From: Candidatus Saccharimonadota bacterium
GTDB taxonomy: Bacteria; Patescibacteriota; Saccharimonadia; Saccharimonadales; HK-STAS-PATE-42
NCBI GenBank assembly: GCA_036826375.1
Contig: DAISWL010000002.1
Span: forward strand, 37,157 to 101,156
DNA: 64,000 nt
Direction of reading: 5' to 3'
The notes beneath the pieces are model-generated. The model searched no databases. It was not told the DNA's origin and saw only the letters and a program-made list of their open reading frames with translations. Both the position numbers and the translations under genes were made by a program. The stretch's first letter is position 1; the number at the start of each line of letters is the position of its first letter. Shown in pieces: positions 9,433 to 64,000 of this stretch.

Positions 9433-9438
9433 ACTTAG

Positions 9439-29855: not shown

Positions 29856-30467
29856 ATGAAGATTGATTTCAAAAAACAGTTAACTTGCTATAAGGCTTCC
29901 CGAAAACTAGAGATCATCGAGGTGCCAAAATTACAATATTTAATGATAGATGGGTTTGGTGATCCTAACGCATCTAAAATGTATCAAGATGCACTCCATA
30001 CTCTGTACCCGGTTGCTTATAAACTTAAGTTTATTTCAAAAAATTTAAATAAAGATTTTGTAGTGATGCCGCTGGAAGGTCTGTGGTGGGCGGATCAGAT
30101 GGATAGTTTTACATCGGCCAGAGATAAAAGCCAGTGGCACTGGACGATGATGATTATGCAACCGAGCCATATAACTCCGGAAATGTTAAAAGATGCTAAG
30201 CTTAAGTTGGCTCAGCAAAAAGATGCTCCGCCGCTACTGGATGATATAAGGCTTGAATATCTGAATGAAGCTACGTCGGTTCAAGTTTTGCACGTTGGTT
30301 CTTATGATGATGAAGCAGATATTTTAGCCAAGATGCATCATGAATTTATCCCAGAAAATAAGCTTAAGATGGTTGGTAAACATCACGAAATCTATTTGAG
30401 CGATCCCAGAAAAATCAGCCCCGAAAAATTAAAAACAATTTTGCGCCAGCCGGTAGAGAATCTATAA
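29856..30467 (+). CDS. GyrI-like small-molecule-binding domain protein
   Basis: 203 aa; the C-terminal HHEIYLSDPRKISPEKLKTILRQP block resembles the GyrI-like/effector-binding domain family, from memory. Confidence 0.4.
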   Translation: MKIDFKKQLTCYKASRKLEIIEVPKLQYLMIDGFGDPNASKMYQDALHTLYPVAYKLKFISKNLNKDFVVMPLEGLWWADQMDSFTSARDKSQWHWTMMIMQPSHITPEMLKDAKLKLAQQKDAPPLLDDIRLEYLNEATSVQVLHVGSYDDEADILAKMHHEFIPENKLKMVGKHHEIYLSDPRKISPEKLKTILRQPVENL

Positions 30468-36412: not shown

Positions 36413-38083
36413 TTAAATCCCCACCACTTCGCCACCAATTTTGTTGCAGAAAAACTGATCATGGCTAATGTAGAGGATAGCACCGCTAAACTTAATCAGC
36501 TCACTTTCAAGCTCCTCAATACTTGGTAGATCTAGGTGGTTGGTGGGCTCATCTAATATTAAAAGATTAGGTTGATTAGCTAGCATTTCAATAATTTGCA
36601 GCCGGGCTTTTTGACCTCCGCTAAGCTTAATTACTGGTTTATCGTAATCGGAAGTTGGCTCAAACAAATAACGTTTTAAAATAGATTTCACCTGAGGCTC
36701 AGTCAGCGGCTTGCCTAATTGATGATAGATATTTTCTACCGCCTGCCCTAGCTTAAGCTTAAGTACGCTAAGGTCAATCTCTTGTTGGTAATAACCAATC
36801 TTAAGATTAGGGTTAAGTTCTATCAAGCCAGAATAGATGCGGGGGAGGGCATCTTTTTGCCCACTGGAGGCAGATTTGCTTAAACTTAATATCGTTTTGA
36901 TTAAAGTAGATTTCCCCGCTCCGTTTTTACCTTTAATCTGCAGCTTCTCACCAATATTCAGCCTGAAAGAAAGTTCGCTAAATAAAATTTTTTCGCCCCA
37001 ACCTAAGCTTAAATCTAGCACATCTATCAGCGGAGCATTACCTTTAATATCGCTTCCGGCCATATTAAGTTTAATGTTGGTAGCTTTGAATTTCTCGTAA
37101 GCCGGCAACTGAGATTTTTTAAGTAGGGCATCTTTGCTTTCGTTATCTATCCATAGATTTGGTTTTTCTATAGCTTCAAGCTCCTTAAGTTTAAGCCGAG
37201 ATTTCGCCTCCAAGCCTTTGAAACGCTGAATTGTACTTGGGTGACGAGATTTTTCTTTCATCCTTTGATAGCGAATAATGTCATCTTTTGTATTGATGAT
37301 TTGCTTTTGAGTGATTTCAAATTCGCTGGCGGCTCCGGCAGTTTTAAAAGCATTTTGGCGGAGGTAATCTTGATAATTACCTGGGTAGATGAAAGTTTTT
37401 TGATCTTTAATTTCTATAATTTTATTGACCAAACTAAGAACATCCCTATCGTGAGTTACAATGATAATTGTGGCCTTTTCTTGAGCTAGCCAATCGTTGA
37501 ACCAAACTTTACTGGCGTAATCCATATGGTTGGTGGGCTCATCCATTAAGATGATATGAGCCTTGCTGTGCATAATTTTCACAACCTCGACCATCCGTTT
37601 TTGACCGCCACTTAAGTTTAATAGCTTATCTGCACTCATGCTTTCGGTGATGCCGAGGCGTTTTAAATCTTCTATGATTTTGCCTTCCAGTTCATAAAAG
37701 CCTAAGTCTCCAAACTGCTCTAAAGCCTCAGAGTATTGGTGAATTTGGTGATTAGTTGGGTTCTGAAGATGCTCAAACTGCTCAATCTGATTCTTAAGTT
37801 TAGTGTAGCGGGGGATATCCCCCAGTATATAAGTTATGACGATTTTATCCGCCTGATCGCTGTGTTCTTGACGGGTGCTTGCTATGGTGATGTTTTTGGC
37901 TAAGCTTAAATCTCCATCGTAATCTTTATCGCTACCGTTAATAATGTTTAAAAGTGTAGATTTCCCACAGCCGTTACGGCCGATTAAACCTATTTTTTCG
38001 CCTTTATTTAAACTTAAGCTAAGCCCGCCATAAAGTAATTTGGAGCCGAAAGATTTTGAATGGATATCAATGTTAACTAGCAT
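36413..38083 (-). CDS. ABC-F family ATPase (two ABC domains, no TMD; EttA/Uup-like)
   Basis: Walker A GRNGCGKST and GKNGAGKST, signatures LSGGQKRM and LSGGQKARL. Start placed at the internal Met (MLVNIDIH) to avoid overlap with the upstream MFS gene. Confidence 0.85.
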   Translation of the reverse strand: MLVNIDIHSKSFGSKLLYGGLSLSLNKGEKIGLIGRNGCGKSTLLNIINGSDKDYDGDLSLAKNITIASTRQEHSDQADKIVITYILGDIPRYTKLKNQIEQFEHLQNPTNHQIHQYSEALEQFGDLGFYELEGKIIEDLKRLGITESMSADKLLNLSGGQKRMVEVVKIMHSKAHIILMDEPTNHMDYASKVWFNDWLAQEKATIIIVTHDRDVLSLVNKIIEIKDQKTFIYPGNYQDYLRQNAFKTAGAASEFEITQKQIINTKDDIIRYQRMKEKSRHPSTIQRFKGLEAKSRLKLKELEAIEKPNLWIDNESKDALLKKSQLPAYEKFKATNIKLNMAGSDIKGNAPLIDVLDLSLGWGEKILFSELSFRLNIGEKLQIKGKNGAGKSTLIKTILSLSKSASSGQKDALPRIYSGLIELNPNLKIGYYQQEIDLSVLKLKLGQAVENIYHQLGKPLTEPQVKSILKRYLFEPTSDYDKPVIKLSGGQKARLQIIEMLANQPNLLILDEPTNHLDLPSIEELESELIKFSGAILYISHDQFFCNKIGGEVVGI

Positions 38084-39290
38084 GACTGTGCCTTTCTTTT
38101 GCATAGATGTACAAACTTAATATTACCACTGTAATCCCTACAAAAGCAGATACTAGCAAGTAGCCGCTATCACCTAACCTATTCATACTTAAGTTTAGTA
38201 GCGGGTAGGATAGAGCCGCCATAATTCCTCCAACTAATCCAGATAAACTAGCTACCGAAGCTCTTTCCGAGCTGGGTGCTAGATCGTGAAGCTTGGCATC
38301 GTTGATATCATTAGCGTAGCTTTGAGAAAGTAATAATATAAACATAGATACCAGCAGTAAGAACCAATTTGTAGCTATAAAGGCAGCGATAGCAAAACCA
38401 GTAGATGTAATCATCAATACCGGCTGCCACCAGCTAGCCTTAAATTTATCTACTAACCCACCCAAAATGAAATAACCAAGGGTACCGGCTATAGCGGTCA
38501 ACAGACCGATCCATTTTTGATCAATCCCAATTTTAAGGTAAGATAGTGGAGAAAATTCATAAACATAATTAGCATAAACTGAAACCACTAGAGCTGAGAT
38601 TATTATTCTCAAGCCCAGGCTCTTATTCACAATGGTTGATTTAATAGTTTTTAACACATGTTTGTAAGCAGTTAGTTCTTGATCTTTTTTATGGAAAGTA
38701 GGTTCTTTAACTAGAAGAATGACCGCTGTACCCAGAATAGCGGTTGGAACTTCTAGAAAGTAAATTGATCTCGGATTAAGCAAATCTAGTAAATATCCAC
38801 CCAAAGATATAGATATGAATAGGCTTAATCCAAAAAGCCTTTGCAAGAATACATTAACCTTAAGATATTTTCCCTCTTGTTTTATGCTCTTTAAGCTATC
38901 ATAAACCAAGGCCTGCGATGTACCACTATGAAAACTAGAAGCTGCTCCCCATACTACTACGGAAATCAGATAGCTAAAATAACTGTGGCTTAATCCCCCC
39001 AGTAGGCTGGAAATAAGTAAACATCCCGTACTTAGGGCTAAGGTTTTGGTTCTGCTCCATCTATCACTTAAAATACTGCTAGGGAATTCTAGGATTAGAG
39101 TGGTGATCATATATATTAACGGAAAACTGGTAATTTGAGTGGTAGTTAAGTTTAATGTATTTTTTAAGAATATTTTTTCTATTCCATACCACAGTACAAA
39201 GCTTGAACAGAGGGTATAGATGGCAATTGCTCTCAATCTAGGGTCTGAGAGAATTAAGCTTATTTCTTTGTGTTGTTTTAGGTATTTCAT
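38073..39290 (-). CDS. MFS transporter
   Basis: 405 aa, ~12 TM; loop motif SDRWSRTK (G-x-L-a-D-R-x-G-R-K/R-like) between TM2 and TM3. Confidence 0.7.
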   Translation of the reverse strand: MKYLKQHKEISLILSDPRLRAIAIYTLCSSFVLWYGIEKIFLKNTLNLTTTQITSFPLIYMITTLILEFPSSILSDRWSRTKTLALSTGCLLISSLLGGLSHSYFSYLISVVVWGAASSFHSGTSQALVYDSLKSIKQEGKYLKVNVFLQRLFGLSLFISISLGGYLLDLLNPRSIYFLEVPTAILGTAVILLVKEPTFHKKDQELTAYKHVLKTIKSTIVNKSLGLRIIISALVVSVYANYVYEFSPLSYLKIGIDQKWIGLLTAIAGTLGYFILGGLVDKFKASWWQPVLMITSTGFAIAAFIATNWFLLLVSMFILLLSQSYANDINDAKLHDLAPSSERASVASLSGLVGGIMAALSYPLLNLSMNRLGDSGYLLVSAFVGITVVILSLYIYAKERHSHAS

Positions 39291-48387: not shown

Positions 48388-48981
48388 ATGCATATTCGTA
48401 ATTATGAGCGTCCTGATGGTTGGAGAGTTGGGAGTCCTGAAGTTTTGGTTGCCCCAAATGTCGTGGATCGGTTAGGTGTGCCTATCGTAGATTACGACGG
48501 CTTGCATCAATTTATGACAGATGATTTAGGGGTCCCCTATGGGGATAGTACCACAATTAAACTATTTGGTAGAGTAGAAGACTCTGGTTTTCTTGGGTTT
48601 CACTTACTCTATACTCGCACTGTGCATATCAATGCGCCGGCTTCAGAAAAAAGATTTTGCACATCTGGAGGTGTGATGAGAGTATTAGCCCATGAAGGCA
48701 GGCATCGTTCAGACTCTACTAATAGAAAATTAGTTACAGCCGCAGAGATGGCCGGGGGGTTGGCTTCATACAAACTTGGTTATGATTTCGCAGAGGCTAT
48801 ACCACTTTTATCTCCAGTAGCTATTCTTGTAGGCTTGAAGTCGGGAGGAACATACTATAGGCATATAGCGCCAGAAGAAAAAAGAGCGCGCATACAGGAG
48901 ATGCACCCGTCCACTATGGAACATAGGAATGATATCACCTTTCCGCTCTCACCAAGAACTGGGTTAGATAATATTACATAA
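48388..48981 (+). CDS. hypothetical protein with HExxH motif (possible zincin-like metallopeptidase)
   Basis: 197-aa ORF with slightly elevated GC; LAHEGRHR contains HExxH. No further assignment possible by eye. Confidence 0.4.
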   Translation: MHIRNYERPDGWRVGSPEVLVAPNVVDRLGVPIVDYDGLHQFMTDDLGVPYGDSTTIKLFGRVEDSGFLGFHLLYTRTVHINAPASEKRFCTSGGVMRVLAHEGRHRSDSTNRKLVTAAEMAGGLASYKLGYDFAEAIPLLSPVAILVGLKSGGTYYRHIAPEEKRARIQEMHPSTMEHRNDITFPLSPRTGLDNIT

Positions 48982-49449: not shown

Positions 49450-49941
49450 ATGATCAAAAAAGCATATCTAGCAGGAGGCTGTTTCTGGGGGATGGAAGAG
49501 TTGTTTCGTAATCAACCCGGCGTAACTGAAACTGAAGCCGGCTACACTGGTGGCAAAAATGAGAATCCAACTTATCAGAATCACCCTGGGCATGCCGAAG
49601 CCTTAGAGATTAGTTATGACGATAGCAAAACTGATTTTTCGCATCTGCTGGATTTCTTCTTCCGGATTCACGACCCCACCAAGCTTAATCGTCAAGGAAA
49701 TGATGTAGGCGAAGCTTATCGCTCAACCATCTTTTATCAAAATGAAGCTGAACTTAATGAATCTAAAAAGATGATTGAGCTTGTTAATGATTCAGATTTA
49801 TGGGATTCACCAGCTGTGACAACGCTAGAACCGTTCACTAAATTTTGGCCAGCGGAAGGTTATCATCAAGATTATTTACAGAATAACCCAGGCGGCTACA
49901 CTTGCCATTTTGCGAGAAGAAGAGAGAGTTTTTTAAGCTAA
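49450..49941 (+). CDS. msrA: peptide-methionine (S)-S-oxide reductase MsrA
   Basis: 163 aa; active-site GCFWG near the N-terminus. Confidence 0.9.
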   Translation: MIKKAYLAGGCFWGMEELFRNQPGVTETEAGYTGGKNENPTYQNHPGHAEALEISYDDSKTDFSHLLDFFFRIHDPTKLNRQGNDVGEAYRSTIFYQNEAELNESKKMIELVNDSDLWDSPAVTTLEPFTKFWPAEGYHQDYLQNNPGGYTCHFARRRESFLS

Positions 49942-50056
49942 GAGCTAAATTAAATTCACATTTATTGCGTTCCCGGGTGCATCTTTTATGTTATACTAAA
50001 CTTAATATTAAGATGCTTAAGCTTAAGTTATAAAGAGAGCATGGCGATAAATAAAA

Positions 50057-51310
50057 ATGTATAAATCAAATTTAATTAGAGATCTACTAGAGGCAAAAGA
50101 GCCTTATTTCAGCCTTTCGGTGAGAGAGCTCGAACATGTCACGGGCAATCAGTTTGCTTTTAAGGAGCTTAGTGTTTATATCCGACGAGAGTTTGAATCT
50201 AAACTTAAGGAGTTGATGCTTGATGCTAGCGCTACTGATGATGAGATATACCTATCGTTATTGAAGAGAGTTAAAAATGATAACACTCGCCTTGCTAAAA
50301 TATTAGGTATTAATAATCCTAACTCTCCGCTGGAGGTAGAAGATAACGTCCTGCACATAGTTAATAATCTTACCATTAATAAAGAAGCGTGGGTTATTAA
50401 TGAAAATACAGCTAGAAACATGTTACTGGCCATGCCGCCCCAGAAAGCTGCCAACCTTTTAAAATATAAAACGGCCAAAGAGATGGTAGAAAATCATGAT
50501 ATATATGAACTATTCGGCTTAATAAGGTTTTCTGAAGGACCGGAGTGGCTTAACAGATTTAATGCTCAATATTCTAAGTTAGAATTTACAGATTTTGAAC
50601 GACGACAGATCCAGTTCAAACAGTTACCACAAATATTAGCTCCAGCGGCTAAAGATTTTGTCTTAAAAAAGAAGCATAACCTAACCCACTCAAAAGAGAT
50701 GGGCGTAGTTTATTTTTTGCCAGTTGAAGATAATATTCCGGGAGCGTTGCTCAGAATAATGCCCCTCAGCTTTCATTATATTAACGAGATTAGAATGTAT
50801 AGCTCCTACTTTAAACTTAATAAAAAGAAACCGGATTTCGGCAAACGCGTAGTACTAGCGCTCACAGCGGAACCAGAGATACTTAAGCTTAGTGATTTAG
50901 GCCTTAAATGGGGGGTCATCCAACGTTATTTCGGTAAACTTAAGAATGAAGAACACCCCGAAGAATTTCTACCTCATTTACAGCCCGAAGATCTACACTG
51001 GCGCAAGGCTGAAGAAATAATCTACCAATTAGATCCCGAATTCAAATTCTGGCAGGATATGGATTGGATAGCTAGATTAAGCCACGATAATAATCCTCTC
51101 ACTATGAACTTCATGGATGTATCTCTAAGCTTTAGCAATAAACTTAAGTTTAAGGATAGATTATTTTATCATTTTAGAGAAAGTTTATGGGATCAGCTCA
51201 TGATCGGTTTCGTGGGAGAACCTGAAGTTGAAAACTTAATAATAGCTCATCTAGATAATAGCTCGATAAATATATCGAGCCAAAATTTAATAAATAAAAA
51301 GGAGGAATAA
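50057..51310 (+). CDS. hypothetical protein (417 aa), no recognisable domain
   Basis: Long intact ORF, first gene of a tightly spaced same-strand cluster (4-nt gap to the next gene). No motif recognised. Confidence 0.5.
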   Translation: MYKSNLIRDLLEAKEPYFSLSVRELEHVTGNQFAFKELSVYIRREFESKLKELMLDASATDDEIYLSLLKRVKNDNTRLAKILGINNPNSPLEVEDNVLHIVNNLTINKEAWVINENTARNMLLAMPPQKAANLLKYKTAKEMVENHDIYELFGLIRFSEGPEWLNRFNAQYSKLEFTDFERRQIQFKQLPQILAPAAKDFVLKKKHNLTHSKEMGVVYFLPVEDNIPGALLRIMPLSFHYINEIRMYSSYFKLNKKKPDFGKRVVLALTAEPEILKLSDLGLKWGVIQRYFGKLKNEEHPEEFLPHLQPEDLHWRKAEEIIYQLDPEFKFWQDMDWIARLSHDNNPLTMNFMDVSLSFSNKLKFKDRLFYHFRESLWDQLMIGFVGEPEVENLIIAHLDNSSINISSQNLINKKEE

Positions 51311-51314
51311 ATTC

Positions 51315-51896
51315 ATGCAAAAGGGATATACAATTTGCGTCAGTGGAGCTGCCAAGGGGTCTACTATAGATAAAGATTATTTAATAGCTTTTGATATAGG
51401 CAAGAAGATTGCCCAGAAAGGTCACACTATGATCAGTGGGGCGACTTCGGGTCTACCAGATTGGGCCGCGCAAGGAGCTAAAAGCTCAGGGGGCATGAGC
51501 ATAGGAATTAGCCCGGCTGCCAGCCGATTAGAACATATCGAAAAATATCGCCTGCCCACAGAATCGTACGACTTCATTATGTTTAGCGGTATGCACTATA
51601 TGGGCAGGGATACTCTATTGATCCAAAGCTCTGACGCCGTGATATCCATCGGCGGACGTATGGGAACAATTCATGAGTTTGCAACCGCCTTTGAAGCCCA
51701 TAAGCCCGTTGGAGTGGTTATGGAGGGTGGTGGTACCGGAGAGCAGATTGAATCTTTAATGAAGGCGGCCGGAGTCTGCCATAACGGAACCTGCAACGGA
51801 GCACACGACGTCATCTTTGGCTCAGATATCGATAAGTTGATTGATGATCTGGTAAAAATTTTAGATGAGAAATATAAAAATAACCAACCGTCCTAA
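51315..51896 (+). CDS. LOG family / TIGR00725-like Rossmann-fold nucleotide-binding protein (putative nucleotide 5'-monophosphate nucleosidase)
   Basis: 193 aa; GGRMGTIHE matches the LOG PGGxGTxxE motif; N-terminal glycine-rich VSGAAKG/ISGATSG; AGGAGG RBS upstream. Confidence 0.6.
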   Translation: MQKGYTICVSGAAKGSTIDKDYLIAFDIGKKIAQKGHTMISGATSGLPDWAAQGAKSSGGMSIGISPAASRLEHIEKYRLPTESYDFIMFSGMHYMGRDTLLIQSSDAVISIGGRMGTIHEFATAFEAHKPVGVVMEGGGTGEQIESLMKAAGVCHNGTCNGAHDVIFGSDIDKLIDDLVKILDEKYKNNQPS

Positions 51897-51915
51897 GCCC
51901 TAAAGGAGAATAATA

Positions 51916-52908
51916 ATGGCCATAGTAAAACCACGACGTCAAACATCGTTCACCATAATAGGCACGGCCACGCTTGATAGTTTTTTGTTTAGCGAGGCTT
52001 TCAAGCCCAAATGCGATGAGAAGGCTTGTTACGAACATTTAATTTTAGGGAAAAAATATGATCTTGATGAGATGATTCAAGTTACCGGTGGTAACTGCAC
52101 TAATGTTGCCATAACACTGAGTAGATTCGGAATCAACAATGTAGATATCGTATGCGCTCTTGGTGACGATCCCGCCGGCAGAGCGGTGGCATCAGAACTT
52201 ATATCTGAAGGGATTGACGTTAGCCACATAATACGAAATCAGAATTTCACCACTAGCCAGTCCACTATACTGGTGGCCCCGGGAGGAGAACGAACAATAT
52301 TGAATTATCGTGGAACCGACATTAAAACCCTCCAGAATGAACTAGATATAAATAGAATCAACTCTGACTGGATTTATTTAAGTGGCGTTAACAGCCCTAA
52401 AATTATATTAAGCTTAATGTTGCATACTCGTGATAATAATATTAAGCTGGCATTCAACCCTAGCAGTTGGGAAACCGCCAATACTCCACAAATAAAGAGA
52501 TTTCTTGGCAATATCGAAATGCTGTTTTTAAATAAAGAAGAGGCTATGGAGTTTTTCGATACTCATGAAAACAATATTACAAAGCTATTAAGAATCGGAG
52601 CCAAAAAAGGAATTAAGTATTTCATCATCACCGATGGGCCGAATGGGAGTGCTTTAATACACGATAACAAAATTTATCAATGCGGCCTGTATGAAGATGT
52701 AGAAGTTATTGAACGCACCGGTGCTGGAGATGCCTTCGCTAGCGGCTTTTTAAGTGTAGTGGCAACTGGCGGAACAATTGAAGAGGCACTCACTTACGGC
52801 TCAGCTAATTCCACAAACGTGGTTCAATATGTTGGCGGCAAACAAGGGATTTTAAAATCACCAATTAAGCTTAATGAAATGCCGATAAAAATAGAACTGG
52901 TTTCTTGA
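51916..52908 (+). CDS. PfkB-family carbohydrate/nucleoside kinase (ribokinase-like)
   Basis: 330 aa; N-terminal GG motif (TGGNCTNVA), NxxE (LNKEEA) and C-terminal TGAGDAF anion-hole motif. Confidence 0.8.
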   Translation: MAIVKPRRQTSFTIIGTATLDSFLFSEAFKPKCDEKACYEHLILGKKYDLDEMIQVTGGNCTNVAITLSRFGINNVDIVCALGDDPAGRAVASELISEGIDVSHIIRNQNFTTSQSTILVAPGGERTILNYRGTDIKTLQNELDINRINSDWIYLSGVNSPKIILSLMLHTRDNNIKLAFNPSSWETANTPQIKRFLGNIEMLFLNKEEAMEFFDTHENNITKLLRIGAKKGIKYFIITDGPNGSALIHDNKIYQCGLYEDVEVIERTGAGDAFASGFLSVVATGGTIEEALTYGSANSTNVVQYVGGKQGILKSPIKLNEMPIKIELVS

Positions 52909-52939
52909 AAATCTGAGAAAAGGCTATAATGGCTATTAA

Positions 52940-54127
52940 ATGATGGAAGATAATTTAAAAGCCAAAGCTGAGCTAAACTTAAAGCTGTTGATGTGGATAA
53001 AAATCTTAGTTAATACTATATTCTGGCTAGGGCTATGGGTTCTTTACTATTTAAAGTTTACGGACTATGCAGGCATAGGTTTGATTGAAAGCACAGGCTT
53101 TATCTTAGGGCTTATGCTAGAAGTACCAGCAGGTGCATTATCAGATAGGTTTGGTCATAAAAATAACTTGGCTATATTCACGGTTCTAAATTTGGTAGGG
53201 CTGGTCTGCTTTTCTATTGCTAGTAGTGTGCTATCTTTACTATTATCAGTAATAATTTGGCGCGGGGCATATTCTTTTTATTCAGGTAGTTTTGAGGCAC
53301 TTCTTCACGAAAGCCTTATTAAGTTAGAAAAAGGCTCACAATATCAAAAGTTTGTATCCAGAATTCACGGTTTAGCCTTAACCACAATGGCATTTAGTGC
53401 ACTAATCGGTGGGTTGCTTTGGAAATATAATTTTAGATTGATCTTTTGGACGGCTATCCCTTTCGCTATTATAGCGGTTGTGCTTTCCTTTAAACTTACT
53501 AACTTTCAAGAAGAAAATACTAAGGGCGAAAGCCTGATTGCATCTTTAAAAGATGGTTCAAAATACATATTTAAGCCAAACTTAAGAGTAGTACTAATTT
53601 CCCTTTTTGGAGTAATCATTTTGCGAGATCTTTTTGAGCAAATATTCGACGCCTCTTTAAGAGTTTCTGCCGGCATGAGTACTATTCAATTAAGCTTAGT
53701 CAGCTTCACCTCAGTTTTACTGCCGGCTTTAGCAGCGCTTCAATATTCAAAAATGAAGAATACCCATAAAAACGTAGATAGAAACATAAAGGTGTTAAGC
53801 TTAAGTTCGCTGGCTCTTTCTTTACCAGCATTTTTTGTTAATAAAATTATGACCGCCTCATCTGTTACCCTGAGAGCTGTTCCAGGGTTATTGCTCAACA
53901 ACACTAATATTGAAAAAATTAACAAAGAGGTGCCATCCAGGCACCGTTCCACGGCTATATCTAGTTACGCTTTTATTACGGCCCTGCCTTATGCGATTTT
54001 AGCTCTGCCAATTGGTAAGGGTATAGATAAATTCGGAGCCAATAAAGTTGCTTTTGGCTTAACCCTGGTTTCAATAGCAGTTTACTTAAGCTTAACAGTG
54101 GTTTTTAGATTTAAAAGAAAGGGTTAG
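52940..54127 (+). CDS. MFS transporter
   Basis: 395 aa polytopic; loop motif GALSDRFGHKN. Confidence 0.7.
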   Translation: MMEDNLKAKAELNLKLLMWIKILVNTIFWLGLWVLYYLKFTDYAGIGLIESTGFILGLMLEVPAGALSDRFGHKNNLAIFTVLNLVGLVCFSIASSVLSLLLSVIIWRGAYSFYSGSFEALLHESLIKLEKGSQYQKFVSRIHGLALTTMAFSALIGGLLWKYNFRLIFWTAIPFAIIAVVLSFKLTNFQEENTKGESLIASLKDGSKYIFKPNLRVVLISLFGVIILRDLFEQIFDASLRVSAGMSTIQLSLVSFTSVLLPALAALQYSKMKNTHKNVDRNIKVLSLSSLALSLPAFFVNKIMTASSVTLRAVPGLLLNNTNIEKINKEVPSRHRSTAISSYAFITALPYAILALPIGKGIDKFGANKVAFGLTLVSIAVYLSLTVVFRFKRKG

Positions 54128-54206: not shown

Positions 54207-55409
54207 TTACTCAGTAACCCTTAGATGAACATCCTTCTTTCTGGTTGATAGATAAAGCAAAATAGAACCAAAAACTAATAGTGCCCAGGCTATAAAAAAG
54301 TACTCCATCTTATTATTAGCGCTGAGGTAACCGATAATTGGAGCTAAAAAAACATACGGAAGCGCCTTAAAAAATGAAGCAACCGATAGCACTGTCGCCC
54401 TCTGTTCCGCCGGTGCCTGATTATTCAGTACTTCGCTTAGAAACGGCTGTAGTGTATGTTCGCCTGCATGTAGAAAAAGAATAACTATATATCCCCACCA
54501 CCCTATGTTTGCAAGTGAAAGCAATAAGCTAGAACCGGCAAGTAGGCCTATTATAGTTAGTACCTTCTTTTCACTTAAGCTATCAGCGTTCTTGTGCATA
54601 TAGCCCAAAAAGCCGGCAGTTATTAAGCTACTCGTCGCTATTACAATAGAACCCGATAATGGACTAAAGTGAAATCTATCTAGCAAAATTAGCCTTAGCA
54701 GCCCATAGCCTGTTGCGTAAAAAAGCCCTTGAACCGTCAATATAAACGGTAGATATAGCCAGAGTTTTGGTAGGCGAAACTGAGCAAAGCCAGTTCTTAT
54801 ATCAAGCAAATAATCTCTAATTTCCGGCATAAAGCCTTTACGTGCTTTCTGAGGCCTGTCATCTTTGACCGTCCAAATCAAAGAGGCGGAAGCTATAAAA
54901 GCAAGGCCATTTAATATCCAAGGAAGCCTGGGTTCAATATTATGTAAAAATCCGCCAGATACTGTCGCTAAGAATGACCCAATAAGTCCGATCTGTGAAG
55001 CGCGAGTTACTAACTTGCGCCAATTAGTAGATTTTTTATCAAATTTTAATCTCTCAAAAAATAAGGCCTCGTCGGCTCCGGATACAAATGATAATCCTAT
55101 CGTCAGTATCGCCTGCCCTATAAAGAATTGAGCGAAACTACTTCCAAAAGCTTGTATTAGTAACCCACATCCGGCTAGTATTTGACCAATTCGAACAATC
55201 TTATCTCGACCAAACTTATCTGCTAAGGCCCCGGAAGGCACTTCTGCTACTAGCCCTATCGCAAACGCCATGCCATCAAGAAATCCTACCTGCTGATCTG
55301 TAATAAATATACGATAAAAGTACAACCAGATAGCACCAACAAACCACATACTTGTGAGTGTCCTATAAATTACATATCGCCTAGAAAGCCTACTCTGTTC
55401 TTTTGTCAT
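54207..55409 (-). CDS. MFS transporter
   Basis: 400 aa polytopic; loop motif GALADKFGRDK. Confidence 0.7.
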   Translation of the reverse strand: MTKEQSRLSRRYVIYRTLTSMWFVGAIWLYFYRIFITDQQVGFLDGMAFAIGLVAEVPSGALADKFGRDKIVRIGQILAGCGLLIQAFGSSFAQFFIGQAILTIGLSFVSGADEALFFERLKFDKKSTNWRKLVTRASQIGLIGSFLATVSGGFLHNIEPRLPWILNGLAFIASASLIWTVKDDRPQKARKGFMPEIRDYLLDIRTGFAQFRLPKLWLYLPFILTVQGLFYATGYGLLRLILLDRFHFSPLSGSIVIATSSLITAGFLGYMHKNADSLSEKKVLTIIGLLAGSSLLLSLANIGWWGYIVILFLHAGEHTLQPFLSEVLNNQAPAEQRATVLSVASFFKALPYVFLAPIIGYLSANNKMEYFFIAWALLVFGSILLYLSTRKKDVHLRVTE

Positions 55410-59829: not shown

Positions 59830-60753
59830 TTAAGGGTTCAGAACATTCTGAGGCTTTCCTTTTATGAAAGCCTCTACGTTATCCATCATCATGTCGTTAC
59901 CGTTCTTTATGCTAGACTGAGCATTGTAAGCAATATGCGGTGTACATAGAATATTATCAATTTTTAGGCATTTTAGATAATCTGCATTACCAGTATCTCC
60001 AACCAATATGTCAGCAAAATCTAAGGCCGCTTTGTAGGTATGGCGAGATTGAACACTTTTTATTAAAGCGTTAAGGTTTAATGTTTGGTTTCTAGAAATT
60101 GATATGAAGGAAGAACCTTTCTTTGTTGAACTAAAAAACTCTTCATTCAGCAAACCTTTAGTATCGGGGTTCTCTGGCAAGGTATTTATTATAAAATCGA
60201 CATCTCCACTTAAGCTTAGTAAGTTATCACCACGCCTAAATACATTAACGCGCATTCCGAGCGCCTCAGAAACTTCAGCAATTCGGCCGCCTATATGTCC
60301 ACCGCCAAGTACTAGAAGATTCTTACCGAGTAGCCCCATATTAACGGGGGGTAAGGCTCCGTCTTTTCTAAATTCTTCTTTGGAATTAAGGAATCTTGTA
60401 AAATCTCTTGATATCTCTAGTAACATCCATATGATCCATTCCGTGACAGATTCTTTGTTTATTCCAGGAGCATTGGAAACGGTAACATTATTATTTTTCA
60501 TTAAATCTAAATCTAGAAATGCTACACTCACAAAGTTTACGGTAACGTAACAATTTTTTAATTCTGGATATGCAACATCCAGCCCTGCGGTGCCGGAACA
60601 AATAATATCCGCCCCTTTAATTATCTCCAGGTAGTCACTTTTAGATTTTGGAAGAGGGTTAAAGAACTTAACATCCCCAAGGGATTCTAGCCTTTCAATC
60701 TGAGCAACTGAAAGATCTTGGCTATTTGTTACAACTATTTTGAACTTTCTCAT
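59830..60753 (-). CDS. D-isomer-specific 2-hydroxyacid dehydrogenase family protein (NAD-binding)
   Basis: 307 aa; NAD-binding GxGxxG in the form VLGGGHIGGRIA; catalytic-domain blocks (TPHIA). Confidence 0.75.
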   Translation of the reverse strand: MRKFKIVVTNSQDLSVAQIERLESLGDVKFFNPLPKSKSDYLEIIKGADIICSGTAGLDVAYPELKNCYVTVNFVSVAFLDLDLMKNNNVTVSNAPGINKESVTEWIIWMLLEISRDFTRFLNSKEEFRKDGALPPVNMGLLGKNLLVLGGGHIGGRIAEVSEALGMRVNVFRRGDNLLSLSGDVDFIINTLPENPDTKGLLNEEFFSSTKKGSSFISISRNQTLNLNALIKSVQSRHTYKAALDFADILVGDTGNADYLKCLKIDNILCTPHIAYNAQSSIKNGNDMMMDNVEAFIKGKPQNVLNP

Positions 60754-60775
60754 TGGTGTATTAATTATAGCAGGG

Positions 60776-61645
60776 CTACTTCAAATCTTTAAGATCTAAT
60801 ACAAAGGTGGCCATCTGAGGTTTATCATTAATATTAAGCTCTACGAATAGCTTATAGATGCCCTCTTTAGGGAATAAGATATTAAACTTAATGTCGCCAG
60901 TATCCTTATCTTTTACAATTTGTTCACTATTTATAAAAGCAAGATCCATACCTCCCTGCCTGAAGGCATAAACTCTAGCAGCCATATCGTTAAGAGACTT
61001 GGCATCTTTGAAAGCCGTCCCTCCTTTATTAAAGCTTAACACTACTGAACGATTTAAACCCTTGCCTTCACGCCAGCCATCAAGATTAATCGTGACCCCA
61101 TCTAAAATTTCGCTTGCTCTCACGTCGCCAAAAGCCTCAACCTTGTAAAGAGCCTTGTTGCCTACTGTAATATCAGTTTTAATTGTTATTTCGTGTTGCT
61201 CAAATAAAGTATTACGCATTTGTTGAGCCTTAAAATTTACAAACATACGATAGTTAGCATCAGCTCCAAAGTTATAGTTTTTAACTATAAATTCACCGGT
61301 AGCGGCATTATACTCGGGCTCTAGAATAGTAAGCTTATTAATATCAGTTCTGAGCAAGAATATATATGCCATCTTGGTATCTTTTTGAACAAATTGTTTT
61401 TGAACCTCACCGGTTTGATTTAAAATACTAAACTTAATATCTTGTGCTACGTTCGGCTCGAAATGATTCGAGCTGAGCTTAAGAGTATACTTTATAGCGT
61501 CTTCAGACTTCGAGGAATTAGATTCGGCCCCGTTGCTTGTAATGGTATTTTTACTGCCCCTGAACAATAGTACCGCTGCCACAGCTAGTAAAATCAAGAT
61601 AAACAATAAGGCAACAAATACCGCAGTTTTCATTCCTTTACTCAT
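60776..61645 (-). CDS. hypothetical membrane-anchored/secreted protein
   Basis: 289 aa with an N-terminal TM/signal anchor (AVFVALLFILILLAVAAVLLF); no recognisable domain. Confidence 0.45.
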   Translation of the reverse strand: MSKGMKTAVFVALLFILILLAVAAVLLFRGSKNTITSNGAESNSSKSEDAIKYTLKLSSNHFEPNVAQDIKFSILNQTGEVQKQFVQKDTKMAYIFLLRTDINKLTILEPEYNAATGEFIVKNYNFGADANYRMFVNFKAQQMRNTLFEQHEITIKTDITVGNKALYKVEAFGDVRASEILDGVTINLDGWREGKGLNRSVVLSFNKGGTAFKDAKSLNDMAARVYAFRQGGMDLAFINSEQIVKDKDTGDIKFNILFPKEGIYKLFVELNINDKPQMATFVLDLKDLK

Positions 61646-61923
61646 ATAACCAACCCCATTGGTAAGAAGTAACTAACAAAAGTTGCCACCACCAGTATTA
61701 AATACTCCATTTTTCTATCAATTTGAAAATGTTCATGTTGGGCAATTATTACTCCTATTAAAAACCCTACCGGCAAACTAACGTGATTTAAGAAGCCGAT
61801 ACTAACCTCAACTAGCCTAATCCAAAAAGTTCCTAAAATGAAGAATAGCAGTATTTTTACTAAATACGTAGTATCCTGTTCGGATGCAGAAGATCTAGTC
61901 TTTTTTGTTTTAGATTTTACCAT
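61642..61923 (-). CDS. small hypothetical membrane protein
   Basis: 93 aa with 2-3 predicted TM segments; overlaps the downstream gene by 4 nt. Confidence 0.35.
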   Translation of the reverse strand: MVKSKTKKTRSSASEQDTTYLVKILLFFILGTFWIRLVEVSIGFLNHVSLPVGFLIGVIIAQHEHFQIDRKMEYLILVVATFVSYFLPMGLVI

Positions 61924-62004
61924 ATCATAAGCAGTATAGCTTAAGTTTAATTAACTGGCAATAGAGATAAATTTATGCTAGAATTAGTTTCAGTATAATA
62001 ATTT

Positions 62005-62299: not shown

Positions 62300-63301
62300 T
62301 TAAGCTTTACTTCGTCCCCTGAGTAATTGTTTAGCTTTAATGACTATGTTGGTAGAATTAAGGCCGTAGCTAAGCTTAAGCTCTTCGTAGGTACCACTTT
62401 GACCGAATTTATCCTCAATACCAATTCTGTGAACAAGAGTAGGCAGATTCTCGGACAAAATCTCACCGACTAAAGACCCCAAGCCTCCGCTAACCTGGTG
62501 TTCCTCTACTGTTATAACTAGCCCAGTTTTAGCGGCGCTCTCTATAATAGTATCCTTATTTATTGGTTTCAAGCTGGGAGCGTGAAGAAGATCAGCTTTG
62601 ATGTTATCCTTTCTTAAACGAATCACTGCTTCTATAGCTTCTACAGTGATAACTCCTGTAGATATTATCGTGATGTCGCTACCTTCGCTAAGCTTAAGTA
62701 CATCTCCTATGACAAATTGTTTATTCTTGGGAGTAAATCCTTCTGTGGCCTCACGGGAAAGTCGTATGTACCCTGGCCGAGGATCTGCTGCCAGGGCTAA
62801 AGCAGCCATCTCTGCTTCGTTTGCATCGCCAGGTGAAAGAACAACCATGTTAGGCAAAGATCTCATCAAGGCTATATCTTCCAGAATTTGATGAGTGGCT
62901 CCATCTGGGCCAACAGATAAGCCGGCATGTGAACCAACTATTTTAACTGGCTGATCATTTAAGCAAATAGTCGTTCTTATTTGTTCCCAGCACCGCCCGG
63001 GGGCAAAGGCTGCGTAGCTACTAACAAAAGGGACCTTGCCCATCGAGGCCATTCCACTACCAACAGTAACCAGATTTTGCTCGGCAACTCCAACTTCTAT
63101 AAACCTCGATGGGAATGCATCTCTAAAAAGATGCATTTGTGTGCTTTCTGTTAGATCCGCGCTTAAGCCTACTACTTTAGTATTTATTTGACCGGCTTTC
63201 AATAAACCCAGACCAAAACCAACTCTGCTCGCTACTTTATCGCTGCTTAGATTTAGTTCAAATAGGGGGTTAGATGGTTTGAAAGATTTAAATTTGATCA
63301 T
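62300..63301 (-). CDS. transketolase, C-terminal (pyrimidine-binding/C-terminal domain) subunit
   Basis: 333 aa; matches the second half of transketolase (FIEVGVAEQNLV..., pyrimidine-binding and C-terminal domains). 4-nt overlap with the upstream subunit gene. Confidence 0.85.
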   Translation of the reverse strand: MIKFKSFKPSNPLFELNLSSDKVASRVGFGLGLLKAGQINTKVVGLSADLTESTQMHLFRDAFPSRFIEVGVAEQNLVTVGSGMASMGKVPFVSSYAAFAPGRCWEQIRTTICLNDQPVKIVGSHAGLSVGPDGATHQILEDIALMRSLPNMVVLSPGDANEAEMAALALAADPRPGYIRLSREATEGFTPKNKQFVIGDVLKLSEGSDITIISTGVITVEAIEAVIRLRKDNIKADLLHAPSLKPINKDTIIESAAKTGLVITVEEHQVSGGLGSLVGEILSENLPTLVHRIGIEDKFGQSGTYEELKLSYGLNSTNIVIKAKQLLRGRSKA

Positions 63302-64000
63302 AAGTGGCCTCCTTCAATTGCTCCATCAAGAGTGCGCAATCGTTTAATAGCATTCTTTTCCTGCTCCTTATTAGGTGCTTTACCGTGCCAAGCGGGATCA
63401 TACTCCATGAAATCTACACCTTTGCCTGGTATAGTGTGAGCTATTATTAAATTAGGTTTAGCAGTCTGACTCCTTGCTAATCTCAAGGCGCCGATAACAG
63501 ATTCTATATTATTGCCATCTGTCTCCTGAACGTACCAGCCGAAAGATTCCCACTTTTCTCGTAGATCCTCCAAGGGCATAACATCTTCGGTGTAGCCGTC
63601 TATTTGGATATTATTTCTATCCACTATACCAACTAAGTTGCCTAACTTATATTTAGAAGCGAACATCGCAGCCTCCCAAATATTACCCTCGTTTAGCTCC
63701 CCGTCTCCCATAGTGCAGTAGATTCTTCGGGTTTTATTGCCGTCAATGAGTAAGCTTAAAGCCATTCCTGCTGCCTGACTTAAGCCTGATCCTAATGGCC
63801 CAGAAGTACTTTCTAGCGCCGGGATTCTCAATCGCTCAGGATGTCCTTGCAGGCTAGACCCAAACTTCCTTAAGCTTAAAAGTAGATGTCTAGGGAAATA
63901 GCCGGCTCTAGCCATTACAGCATAGCGCGCCGGTACGGTGTGCCCGTTAGATTGAACCAGGATGTCCCTCTCTGCCCAAGATGAATCATTAGGATCATGC
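63298..64000 (-). CDS. transketolase, N-terminal (thiamine-diphosphate-binding) subunit, 5' end beyond window
   Basis: GHPE, the TPP-binding GDGELNEGNIWEAAMFA block and GWYV. The reading frame stays open upstream of the track's first Met (...HTVPARYAVMARAGYFP matches the KGHA.PALYA region), so the true start lies past position 64000. Confidence 0.85.
   Translation of the reverse strand, partial: HDPNDSSWAERDILVQSNGHTVPARYAVMARAGYFPRHLLLSLRKFGSSLQGHPERLRIPALESTSGPLGSGLSQAAGMALSLLIDGNKTRRIYCTMGDGELNEGNIWEAAMFASKYKLGNLVGIVDRNNIQIDGYTEDVMPLEDLREKWESFGWYVQETDGNNIESVIGALRLARSQTAKPNLIIAHTIPGKGVDFMEYDPAWHGKAPNKEQEKNAIKRLRTLDGAIEGGHL

What the first reader, a model, noticed from the sequence alone, without database searches (positions are those of the whole stretch)
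50057..54127. Operon of an unknown 417-aa protein, a LOG/TIGR00725-like protein, a PfkB kinase and an MFS permease
Four same-strand genes with 4-32 nt spacers and SD sites: an uncharacterised 417-aa protein; a LOG-family protein (PGGxGTxxE present as GGRMGTIHE), the family of nucleotide 5'-monophosphate phosphoribohydrolases; a ribokinase-like PfkB kinase (GG and TGAGDAF motifs); and an MFS transporter. The simplest reading is a nucleoside/nucleotide salvage or remodelling route: import, N-glycosidic cleavage, phosphorylation of the sugar or nucleoside. The unknown 417-aa protein would then be a new component. LOG/SLOG domains also feature in nucleotide-signalling and conflict systems, so a signalling role is an alternative.
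Basis: partly seen in the sequence, partly recalled or inferred. Interest (0 to 1): 0.6.

Follow-up and report, generated by a model that had tools for sequence, protein, structure and literature searches.

The report
Orphan protein partnered with LOG-like enzyme
In this Saccharibacteria genome, a protein with no sequence-family or solved-structure match sits with a LOG-like nucleotide-cleaving enzyme and a sugar kinase, a trio that in most related genomes ends the sugar-phosphate operon and may feed ribose from scavenged nucleotides into energy metabolism.

Summary
The four ORFs exist exactly as described. Only three of them form a conserved unit.

- **Conservation.** The 417-aa protein (X), the SLOG-cluster-4/TIGR00725-like protein and the PfkB kinase stay together in Saccharibacteria. 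In 80 species genomes, PfkB lies just upstream of X in 71 of 74 assessable loci. A SLOG or LOG gene lies next to, near or fused to X in 69 of 74.
- **Context.** The usual order is (PPase)-GAPDH-RpiB-Rpe-Tkt-FBA-PfkB-X-SLOG. In this lineage the trio has moved and been reordered.
- **MFS.** The permease is a lineage-specific passenger. It is a 175-aa remnant or absent in close relatives.
- **X.** It has no Pfam, NCBIfam or PDB sequence match. Its AlphaFold model is confident (pLDDT 92) but has no Foldseek match in PDB. X usually abuts or overlaps the SLOG gene and is sometimes fused to a canonical LOG.
- **SLOG.** It keeps the LOG catalytic Arg and Glu.
- **Published data.** The orthologous PfkB is predicted to be the missing phosphofructokinase. 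Tn-seq in Southlakia epibionticum shows PfkB behaving like aldolase, SLOG dispensable, and X absent from the locus.

Best reading: X·SLOG releases ribose-5-phosphate from nucleotides, and PfkB is a phosphosugar kinase. X's own role remains unknown. A defence or signalling role is unsupported.

The parts
50057..51310 (+). Gene X: 417-aa orphan protein with no sequence-family match and no Foldseek match to solved or viral structures; likely partner of the LOG-like protein
   Evidence: ORF. No Pfam, NCBIfam, PADLOC or PDB sequence match. 1530 homologues; 927 clusters at 50% identity; 273 species genomes, nearly all titled Saccharibacteria/Saccharimonadales or Patescibacteria among the 80 listed. 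AF2 model pLDDT 92, pTM 0.90. No Foldseek match in PDB or BFVD. Fused to a canonical LOG in 658-673-aa proteins.
51315..51896 (+). SLOG cluster-4 / TIGR00725-like protein (LOG superfamily), candidate nucleoside-5'-monophosphate phosphoribohydrolase
   Evidence: PF18306 at E 6e-33; TIGR00725 at 82 bits, below its cut-off. Closest solved relatives are 1RCU (TM1055), the Moco carrier protein 2IZ5, then LOGs. R98, T118 and E121 (GGRMGTIHE) are conserved in orthologues and align with the LOG catalytic dyad.
51916..52908 (+). PfkB-family kinase, orthologue of the aldolase-adjacent PfkB of other Saccharibacteria (putative phosphosugar 1-kinase / PfkB-type PFK)
   Evidence: PF00294 at E 7e-43. Every NCBIfam equivalog match is far below cut-off; the best are ribokinase (106 bits against 300) and ribose-1-phosphate kinase (93 against 330). 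Shares the subfamily's conserved residues D21, K47, GG58-59/N63, GERT124-127, N206/E209, R267 and GAGD269-272 with the orthologue regions of 84 other loci. Literature prediction and Tn-seq.
52940..54127 (+). MFS permease: lineage-specific neighbour, not part of the conserved module
   Evidence: PF07690 at E 7e-18, with only weak drug/H+ antiporter-like subfamily matches. Present after PfkB only in the window and L003; 175-aa remnant in L092; absent from L001; upstream on the opposite strand in L002; not detected in the 80 species loci.
51296..51317 (+). X stop codon, 4-nt spacer and SLOG start codon, with an AGGAGG Shine-Dalgarno inside the 3' end of X (probable translational coupling)
   Evidence: Sequence. 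In other species the X-to-SLOG spacing is 4 nt or less in 50 of 61 loci and overlapping in 35.
49942..50056 (+). 115-nt AT-rich intergenic region upstream of X (after msrA), the likely promoter region of the unit
   Evidence: Sequence. The consensus scan lists no strong promoter inside this region; its nearest + strand matches (49816-49844, 49875-49902) lie within the msrA coding sequence. The assignment is inferred from the gene layout only.

Best explanation
The real unit is a three-gene module, X-SLOG-PfkB. It is the relocated and reordered tail of the sugar-phosphate operon that most X-carrying Saccharibacteria encode as (PPase)-GAPDH-RpiB-Rpe-TktN-TktC-FBA-PfkB-X-SLOG.

Proposed mechanism, all inferred. 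These bacteria cannot make nucleotides or PRPP, and they lack annotated phosphofructokinase and transaldolase. The LOG-like SLOG protein works as a complex with X. The two genes are usually abutting or overlapping, and in some lineages they are fused. The complex cleaves the N-glycosidic bond of scavenged nucleoside 5'-monophosphates to give free base plus ribose-5-phosphate. RpiB, Rpe and transketolase then convert the pentose phosphate; in this genome a phosphoketolase can do so as well. PfkB is the ATP-dependent 1-kinase for fructose-6-phosphate, and probably for sedoheptulose-7-phosphate. Together with the class II aldolase it would replace both missing enzymes.

X is an obligate accessory subunit of the LOG-type enzyme, with either a substrate-delivering, second catalytic or regulatory role. 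Which of these applies cannot be decided from sequence. The MFS gene is a recent, unstable neighbour.

Shown: gene presence, synteny, fusion, tight spacing and residue conservation. Inferred: every catalytic assignment.
For: Synteny. In 80 species genomes, PfkB lies directly upstream of X in 71 of 74 assessable loci. A SLOG-superfamily gene accompanies X in 69 of 74: 55 adjacent SLOG4, 6 SLOG4 within 3.5 kb, 5 fused canonical LOG and 3 adjacent canonical LOG. The full PPP/glycolysis context also appears in independent metagenome contigs.

X-SLOG link. The spacing is 4 nt or less in 50 of 61 loci and overlapping in 35. The fused proteins carry a TIGR00730-type LOG scoring above its cut-off (118-150 bits against 96). 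LOG-linked X proteins are scattered over an NJ tree of X, which suggests repeated events.

Trio linkage. In the window's lineage the trio stayed together after relocation and reordering, while FBA is no longer beside Tkt.

SLOG active site. The Arg and Glu (and Thr) of the LOG active site are conserved.

Literature. Saccharibacteria lack PRPP synthesis and annotated PFK, and the other Saccharibacteria genomes analysed lack transaldolase (PMC6031116). The TM7x PfkB next to FBA is predicted to be a PFK and is glucose-induced (PMC12815258). In S. epibionticum Tn-seq, PfkB reads fall 815/344/46 in parallel with FBA at 782/124/19 (PMC10633639).

This genome. The window encodes a phosphoketolase and a split transketolase, so pentose phosphate can be used here.
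Against: No biochemical data exist for any of the three proteins.

In S. epibionticum the SLOG gene is dispensable in co-culture (reads 2084/3498/3748, non-essential at all three time points). X is absent from that locus. X is therefore not universal, and SLOG can function without it.

The non-catalytic Moco carrier protein also keeps the Arg and Glu (alignment), so their conservation does not prove hydrolase activity.

The histidines of X are invariant among its closer relatives but only 56-89% conserved across the wider family. Across 248 sequences only D354 is strictly invariant. This weakens the case for a metal-dependent enzyme.

The AF2 model of a natural X-LOG fusion has pTM 0.58, so it gives no confident inter-domain interface.

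PfkB scores best, though far below cut-off, against ribokinase and ribose-1-phosphate kinase models and not against the Pfk-2/1-PFK models.

Five of 74 loci, forming one clade, have X with no SLOG nearby.
Confidence: 0.4

Rival explanations
1. Kinase-then-glycosidase ribose harvest, the first reader's route without the MFS. PfkB is a nucleoside (or ribose) kinase that produces NMP (or R5P). SLOG·X then hydrolyses the NMP to base plus R5P. The logic mirrors pseudouridine kinase followed by pseudouridine-5'-phosphate glycosidase.
For: The best NCBIfam scores for PfkB are ribokinase (106 bits) and ribose-1-phosphate kinase (93 bits), with a nucleoside kinase model at 55 bits. The TM7x orthologue was originally annotated as ribokinase. 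PfkB stayed with X-SLOG and not with Tkt when the operon broke up in the window's lineage, and no FBA lies beside Tkt there.
Against: All of those scores are 3- to 8-fold below the curated cut-offs. In S. epibionticum, disrupting PfkB gives a growth defect that parallels FBA, whereas disrupting SLOG is neutral. This is not expected if the two enzymes act in one linear route. In 71 of 74 species loci PfkB lies directly upstream of X, and in nearly all loci with enough upstream sequence FBA precedes PfkB. Without a PFK-like activity the conserved Tkt-FBA set has no known way to complete glycolysis or the transaldolase-less pentose-phosphate pathway.
Confidence: 0.2
2. Regulatory pair. SLOG4 is a ligand-binding protein, as its relative the Moco carrier protein is. 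With X it senses a nucleotide or sugar-phosphate and tunes PfkB or glycolytic flux, and it has no catalytic activity of its own.
For: SLOG4 is closer to 1RCU and the Moco carrier protein (E 2e-12 and 4e-10) than to proven LOGs (E 8e-5 or weaker, apart from the unnamed 3QUA entry at 2e-7). SLOG is dispensable in Tn-seq. The most conserved positions of X are mainly aromatic or structural, and its histidines vary. Other LOG-family enzymes carry allosteric extra domains, for example PpnN; this last point is my own background knowledge and was not tested.
Against: In about a tenth of the species loci a bona fide TIGR00730-type LOG (above cut-off, with the full PGGxGTxxE motif) replaces SLOG4, and it is fused to X in 5 of 74. 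This argues that the partner's enzymatic chemistry matters. R98, T118 and E121 are conserved.
Confidence: 0.15
3. X is the main enzyme, a novel-fold catalyst for a missing central-metabolism step. Candidates include a transaldolase or SBPase substitute, an NMP phosphorylase producing ribose-1,5-bisphosphate, or a PRPP-independent nucleotide-forming activity. The LOG-type domain would supply or remove its substrate.
For: X has no detectable sequence-family or solved-structure match yet gives a confident, compact model. It contains a strictly invariant Asp (D354) and highly conserved E160, R183, E214, N351 and H307. It sits in an operon that lacks an annotated PFK and transaldolase. The second-best PfkB match is to a ribose-1-phosphate kinase model.
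Against: No positive evidence exists for any particular reaction. X is absent from the S. epibionticum locus although that organism runs the same operon. The histidines of X are not conserved across the family.
Confidence: 0.15
4. Nucleotide-signalling or anti-phage conflict system built on a SLOG sensor domain.
For: SLOG domains occur in Thoeris ThsA and other defence systems (titles and abstracts listed). One marginal PADLOC match exists: PsyrA, E 2e-5, covering 55 residues.
Against: The position is conserved and vertically inherited inside a housekeeping metabolic operon in the great majority of the 80 species genomes examined. No effector, TIR, SIR2 or nuclease partner is present. Base composition is native. 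X, PfkB and MFS have no PADLOC matches.
Confidence: 0.03

Closest known systems
LOG / TIGR00730 nucleoside-5'-monophosphate phosphoribohydrolases (e.g. C. glutamicum CgLOG; E. coli PpnN as a LOG with extra regulatory domains)
   Same: Same superfamily fold signature. The GGxGTxxE-type motif is present as GGRMGTIHE. Arg98 and Glu121 align with catalytic Arg99 and Glu122 of CgLOG, and the phosphate-binding Thr is conserved. In about 10% of related species loci a true TIGR00730 LOG occupies the same position, sometimes fused to X. Like PpnN, the enzyme appears to work with additional non-LOG protein mass (the PpnN comparison is background knowledge).
   Different: The window protein belongs to SLOG cluster 4 (PF18306). 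It scores below the cut-offs of TIGR00725 and TIGR00730, and only 22 bits against PF03641, below its cut-off of 27. The first Pro of the PGGxGTxxE motif is Gly, and the GGGxxG loop reads SGATSGLP. The partner X has no match to any Pfam family, PpnN's flanking domains included. Activity is untested.
TM1055 (PDB 1RCU) and Chlamydomonas Moco carrier protein (PDB 2IZ5): the TIGR00725/MCP-like branch of SLOG
   Same: These are the closest solved sequences, at E 2e-12 and 4e-10. DPAM assigns the S. epibionticum orthologue to the ECOD group 'MCP/YpsA-related', with e1rcuA1 as reference (PMC10633639 Table S2).
   Different: The Moco carrier protein binds a cofactor and is not an enzyme, and TM1055 has no known function. 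Neither is known to have an X-like partner or a sugar-phosphate operon context (background knowledge).
PfkB-type 6-phosphofructokinase proposed for Nanosynbacter lyticus TM7x (TM7x_02415), combined with the PFK+aldolase sedoheptulose-1,7-bisphosphate bypass of transaldolase
   Same: The window's PfkB shares the subfamily's conserved residues with the aldolase-adjacent PfkB of other Saccharibacteria. That gene is predicted to be the missing PFK and is induced by glucose. In Tn-seq it tracks FBA. Transaldolase is generally absent.
   Different: In the window the kinase is no longer next to an aldolase. Sequence scores lean towards the ribokinase/KDG-kinase-like branch, with a GER(T) motif, and not towards E. 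coli Pfk-2/1-PFK. No enzymology exists. The SBP bypass is known from other organisms (background knowledge) and has not been shown in Saccharibacteria.
Pseudouridine kinase (PsuK, PfkB family) plus pseudouridine-5'-phosphate glycosidase (PsuG); AMP nucleosidase (Amn)
   Same: The same pathway logic as the rival reading: phosphorylate, then cleave the glycosidic bond to release ribose-5-phosphate directly. In the best reading, an NMP glycosidase feeds the pentose-phosphate pathway.
   Different: There is no sequence relationship to PsuG or Amn. PsuK matches at only E 0.02. The analogy is mechanistic only.

Membership tests
LOG-type phosphoribohydrolase (PF03641 / TIGR00730) | Score above the family's curated threshold | tested here: not met
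   PF03641 scores 21.7 bits against a cut-off of 27. TIGR00730 scores 42.6 against 96.35. The CtkRMPhLog model scores 32 against 300. The LOG domains fused to X in other species do pass TIGR00730, at 118-150 bits.
LOG-type phosphoribohydrolase (PF03641 / TIGR00730) | PGGxGTxxE motif with catalytic Glu, and catalytic Arg about 23 residues upstream | tested here: met
   The motif is GGRMGTIHE (113-121) with E121, and R98 lies upstream. Among 71 orthologues R98 is conserved in 70 and E121 in 67. The first Pro is replaced by Gly. The reference residues are Arg99 and Glu122 in CgLOG.
LOG-type phosphoribohydrolase (PF03641 / TIGR00730) | Hydrolysis of nucleoside 5'-monophosphates to base plus ribose-5-phosphate | not testable with these tools
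   This needs enzymology. The non-catalytic Moco carrier protein keeps the same Arg and Glu, so sequence alone cannot decide.
SLOG cluster 4 (PF18306) / TIGR00725 | Score above the family's threshold | tested here: met
   PF18306 scores 114 bits against a cut-off of 26.3, so this is met. The narrower TIGR00725 hypothetical-equivalog model scores 82.5 against 106.9, so that is not met.
PfkB carbohydrate/nucleoside kinase family (PF00294) | Family score, GG dipeptide motif, NxxE Mg-binding motif and G-A-G-D catalytic-base motif | tested here: met
   PF00294 scores 147.5 bits against a cut-off of 25.8. G58 (81/85), G59, N63, N206, E209 and G269-A-G-D272 (each 85/85) are conserved across the orthologue regions of 85 loci.
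Ribokinase (TIGR02152 / PRK11142) | Equivalog-level score | tested here: not met
   The scores are 106 bits against a cut-off of 300, and 63 against 341.
PfkB-type 6-phosphofructokinase / 1-PFK hexose-kinase subfamily (TIGR03168, TIGR03828) | Subfamily-level score | tested here: not met
   The scores are 66.6 bits against 216, and 65.5 against 292. The PFK assignment therefore rests on context, literature prediction and Tn-seq, not on family membership.
PfkB-type 6-phosphofructokinase | ATP-dependent phosphorylation of fructose-6-phosphate (and sedoheptulose-7-phosphate) | not testable with these tools
   This needs kinetics on F6P, S7P, ribose, nucleosides and ribose-1-phosphate.
Any described protein family or solved fold, for X | Significant sequence or structure match | tested here: not met
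Anti-phage defence / SLOG conflict systems | Match to known defence proteins, presence of an effector partner, and a variable or island-like context | tested here: not met
   There is only a 55-residue PsyrA match at E 2e-5. No effector domains are present in the module. The genes occupy a fixed position in a metabolic operon across species. GC content is native.

The most novel reading that the evidence does not exclude
X is a new-fold enzyme subunit that, together with a LOG-type domain, forms a previously undescribed two-component entry point from host-derived nucleotides into central carbon metabolism. One version would be phosphorolytic or otherwise energy-conserving cleavage of NMPs, or coupling of NTP/NDP processing to N-glycoside cleavage. 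If so, it would explain how environmental Saccharibacteria use scavenged nucleotides as a fuel.
Probability: 0.2. Interest if true: 0.75.

Novelty: new variant of a known kind. Interest (0 to 1): 0.55.

Why it matters
Saccharibacteria and other Patescibacteria cannot make nucleotides. They have puzzling gaps in glycolysis and the pentose-phosphate pathway, with no annotated PFK or transaldolase. How they turn host-derived material into energy is an open question.

This module places a LOG-type nucleotide-cleaving enzyme and a candidate replacement kinase at the end of the sugar-phosphate operon. That gives a concrete, testable route from nucleotides to ribose-5-phosphate to glycolysis.

It also flags a widespread orphan protein, found in at least 273 species genomes and 927 clusters at 50% identity. 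The protein has a confidently predicted fold with no Foldseek match in PDB and a clear partner, so its characterisation is tractable. Genetic tools and Tn-seq now exist for cultivated Saccharibacteria.

If X proves to be only an accessory or regulatory subunit, the finding is a modest annotation gain. If X is catalytic, it would be a new enzyme family.

Tried and rejected

2. **Sequence matches for X.** The PDB profile search and the per-member Pfam scan gave nothing.

3. **A weak lead, not accepted.** Residues about 20-170 of four X proteins hit the rifamycin phosphotransferase / PEP-synthase-like NCBIfam models at profile positions about 421-557, always in the same register. The best E-values are only 0.003-0.005. 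The PDB sequence search of that region returned no phosphotransferase or PEP-synthase entry, and the whole-model Foldseek list contains none either.

4. **X as a histidine-rich metallo-enzyme.** This was suggested by 7 invariant His among 111 closer relatives. It was weakened when 50%-cluster representatives were added: His conservation drops to 56-89%, and only D354 is strictly invariant.

5. **AF2 model of a natural X-LOG fusion.** I ran it to look for a fixed interface. The pTM was 0.58 from a shallow alignment, so the result is inconclusive.

6. **NUDIX at the head of the operon.** I looked at it as support for nucleotide catabolism, but it was detectable in only 7 of 43 loci, so I did not use it.

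7. **Defence-system reading.** Rejected on the basis.

8. **MFS as the importer of the pathway.** Rejected as a conserved component.

9. **Source-given names for X.** The only names found are 'hypothetical protein'.

10. **Promoter and terminator scan.** Not above chance.

Full report
**Observation.** The spacers are 4, 19 and 31 nt. Clear Shine-Dalgarno sequences precede the second and third genes. ORF2 is a SLOG cluster-4 protein (PF18306, E 6e-33); it scores 82 bits against TIGR00725, below that model's cut-off. ORF3 is a PfkB-family kinase (E 7e-43). ORF4 is an MFS_1 transporter. X matches nothing in Pfam, NCBIfam, PADLOC or the PDB sequence set. GC content is the same as in the flanks. 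The promoter and terminator consensus scan is not above chance, so the single-transcript idea rests on spacing and strand. The flanks are housekeeping genes: tuf and tig upstream on the minus strand, msrB and msrA, then rpsM-rpsK-rpsD-rpoA downstream. The homologues identify the organism as a member of the Saccharibacteria.

**What is conserved.** X has 1530 homologues in the large protein collection. A profile search found 927 clusters at 50% identity, 476 of them with E below 1e-30. Relatives were found in 273 species-representative genomes. Of the 80 listed, nearly all are titled Saccharibacteria, Saccharimonadales or Patescibacteria. I mapped reference proteins onto the 80 retrieved species loci and onto independent metagenome contigs. 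An almost invariant arrangement emerged: (PPase)-GAPDH-RpiB-Rpe-TktN-TktC-class II FBA-PfkB-X-SLOG4-...-UvrB, all on one strand. PfkB lies directly upstream of X in 71 of 74 assessable loci. A SLOG-superfamily gene accompanies X in 69 of 74: 55 adjacent SLOG4, 6 SLOG4 within 3.5 kb, 5 canonical LOG fused to the C-terminus of X, and 3 adjacent canonical LOG. The five exceptions fall together within one 13-member clade of the X tree.

**The window's own lineage.** The window, L001/L002, L003 and L092 share 67-83% X identity and show a derived state. The trio is reordered to X-SLOG-PfkB and sits between msrA and the infA/rpsM operon (in the window, directly before rpsM). The window's split transketolase (62300-63915, minus strand) is followed by unrelated genes and no aldolase. 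The trio therefore stayed linked through at least two rearrangements.

**The MFS gene is not conserved.** It is intact after PfkB in the window and L003. It is a 175-aa remnant in the closest relative, L092. It is absent from L001, lies upstream on the other strand in L002, and was not detected in the 80 species loci.

**X and the LOG-like protein.** Several observations tie them together.
- The X stop and SLOG start are 4 nt or less apart in 50 of 61 loci and overlap in 35, mostly as ATGA or TAATG-type junctions. ORF starts were taken as the first start codon, so a few of these may be over-called.
- Roughly a tenth of the top database hits, and 5 of 74 assessable species loci, are single 658-673-aa proteins consisting of X, a linker and a LOG domain.
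- In these fusions the partner is not SLOG4. It is a canonical TIGR00730/PF03641 LOG with the full PGGFGTxDE motif, scoring above the curated cut-offs.
- LOG-linked X proteins are scattered in at least four places in an unbootstrapped NJ tree of X. This suggests repeated displacement or fusion.

Non-orthologous replacement of SLOG4 by a proven type of phosphoribohydrolase is the best available argument that SLOG4 performs similar chemistry here. Consistent with this, R98, T118 and E121 are conserved in 70, about 65 and 67 of 71 orthologues respectively, and they align with the fused LOG domains. CgLOG uses Arg99 and Glu122 as its catalytic residues and Thr119 plus the glycine loop for the phosphate (PMC4979012). 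One caveat applies. The closest solved relatives are TM1055 (1RCU) and the non-enzymatic Moco carrier protein (2IZ5), and the latter keeps the same Arg and Glu.

Among relatives at 40% identity or more, seven histidines and several acidic residues are invariant, which looked like a metal site. After adding the 50%-cluster representatives (identity down to 21%), the picture changes. Histidine conservation drops to 56-89%. The best-conserved positions are D354 (100%), W164, W285, W332, P128, F180, F261, E160, G216, R183 and P306. An enzymatic role remains possible but is not indicated strongly.

Weak hits in a constant register link X residues about 20-170 to the rifamycin phosphotransferase / PEP-synthase-like models (best E 0.003-0.005). 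Neither the PDB sequence search nor the Foldseek list corroborates them. An AF2 model of a natural fusion gave pTM 0.58, so it says nothing reliable about a domain interface.

**Literature context.** Saccharibacteria lack nucleotide and PRPP synthesis and an annotated 6-phosphofructokinase. Transaldolase is absent from the other Saccharibacteria genomes analysed in that study (PMC6031116). For Nanosynbacter lyticus TM7x, the PfkB gene beside the aldolase (TM7x_02415) was recently proposed to be a PfkB-type phosphofructokinase and is induced by glucose (PMC12815258).

The Tn-seq tables for Southlakia epibionticum show the locus Tkt(0550/0549)-FBA(0548)-PfkB(0547)-'LOG family' SLOG4(0546)-78-aa hypothetical protein(0545). 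That cultivated oral species has SLOG4 but no X at this position (PMC10633639). Normalised reads at T0/T1/T2 are as follows:

| Gene | T0 | T1 | T2 | Calls |
|---|---|---|---|---|
| PfkB (0547) | 815 | 344 | 46 | NE, NE, growth defect |
| FBA (0548) | 782 | 124 | 19 | NE, growth defect, growth defect |
| SLOG4 (0546) | 2084 | 3498 | 3748 | non-essential throughout |

PfkB thus behaves like a glycolytic gene, SLOG4 is dispensable on a host, and X is an accessory that not all lineages keep.

**PfkB sequence.** The window's PfkB shares the subfamily's conserved residues with the orthologue regions of 84 other loci: D21, K47, GG/N63, GERT, NxxE, R267 and GAGD. Its NCBIfam scores are all far below cut-off and lean towards ribokinase, ribose-1-phosphate kinase and KDG-kinase-like models, not towards Pfk-2.

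**Synthesis.** The best-supported model has two parts.
- SLOG4, with X as a tightly coupled partner, releases ribose-5-phosphate from scavenged nucleoside monophosphates.
- PfkB is the phosphosugar 1-kinase that, with class II aldolase, substitutes for the missing PFK and probably for transaldolase through sedoheptulose-1,7-bisphosphate. That bypass is known from other organisms (background knowledge).

In this genome a phosphoketolase (228-2582, minus strand) offers a further outlet for pentose phosphate. Every catalytic step is an inference. Confidence in the whole package is about 0.4.

**Rival explanations.**
- PfkB is a nucleoside or ribose kinase in a kinase-then-glycosidase route (0.2). 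Its co-migration with X-SLOG favours this, and the Tn-seq disfavours it.
- SLOG4/X is a ligand-sensing regulatory pair (0.15).
- X is itself a novel enzyme for a missing step (0.15).
- The module is a conflict or signalling system (0.03). That reading has essentially no support.

**Verdict.** PfkB and SLOG are members of known superfamilies in a partly anticipated role. The new element is the X family and its obligate-looking pairing with LOG-type proteins. I therefore rate this a new variant of a known kind, of moderate interest, and readily testable.

Noticed in passing
window 9439-9441 (minus strand), within rpoC (6865-10701): An in-frame TAA interrupts the beta' subunit gene inside a highly conserved stretch. 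The translation reads ...[29 protein letters not shown]..., with no residues missing. This yields 420-aa and 855-aa ORFs carrying Rpb1 domain 1 and domains 2-5 respectively. It could be a sequencing or assembly error, a genuine split gene with restart at the Met two codons later, or stop-codon read-through.
   Followed up: partly
window 228-2582 (minus strand): [quoted passage not shown] It gives this lineage an aldolase-independent outlet for pentose phosphates.
   Followed up: yes
window 62300-63915 (minus strand) and 59830-62000: A split transketolase (TktN and TktC) is followed by a 93-aa and a 289-aa protein of unknown function (hydrophobic N-termini, no Pfam match for the 289-aa one) and a D-2-hydroxyacid dehydrogenase. 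In other Saccharibacteria the FBA-PfkB-X-SLOG genes follow instead. FBA was not found anywhere in the 64-kb window.
   Followed up: partly
window 48388-48981 (+): A 197-aa ORF between tig and msrB has no Pfam, NCBIfam or PADLOC match. In close relatives this position holds different genes (an HSDR_N_2 protein, or CAP- and Big_9-domain proteins), so it is a variable spot.
   Followed up: partly
window 54207-55409 (minus strand) and 38073-39290 (minus strand): Two further MFS transporters. One converges on the operon's MFS and resembles TetA(P)/Tet(40)-type efflux pumps at sub-threshold scores. The other lies next to ORFs that, judged by comparison with the annotated relative L092, are ABC transporter genes.
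   Followed up: no
L092 12865-13392: In the closest relative (83% X identity) the MFS gene after PfkB is reduced to a 175-aa remnant. This indicates ongoing decay of that gene in the lineage.
   Followed up: partly
L006, L026, L048, L055, L080, L083 (fused); L071, L021, L075 (adjacent): X is fused or adjacent to a canonical TIGR00730-type LOG in place of SLOG4. These loci are scattered in an NJ tree of X, which suggests repeated displacement or fusion, or transfer of the fused gene.
   Followed up: partly
L011, L012, L016, L022, L031: These related loci have X followed directly by UvrB (L011, L012, L016, L022) or by an unrelated membrane-anchored protein (L031), with no SLOG or LOG nearby. In these genomes X either works alone or its partner is encoded elsewhere.
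   Followed up: partly
Southlakia epibionticum SEML1_0545-0550 (PMC10633639 Tables S1/S2): This cultivated oral Saccharibacterium has Tkt-FBA-PfkB-SLOG4 with no X between PfkB and SLOG4. X is therefore not universal in the phylum and may have been lost from the reduced, host-associated lineages.
   Followed up: partly
window 24398-25015 (+) and 29856-30467 (+): A CYTH-domain protein (triphosphate tunnel metalloenzyme family) and a GyrI-like small-molecule-binding protein. Neither was examined further.
   Followed up: no
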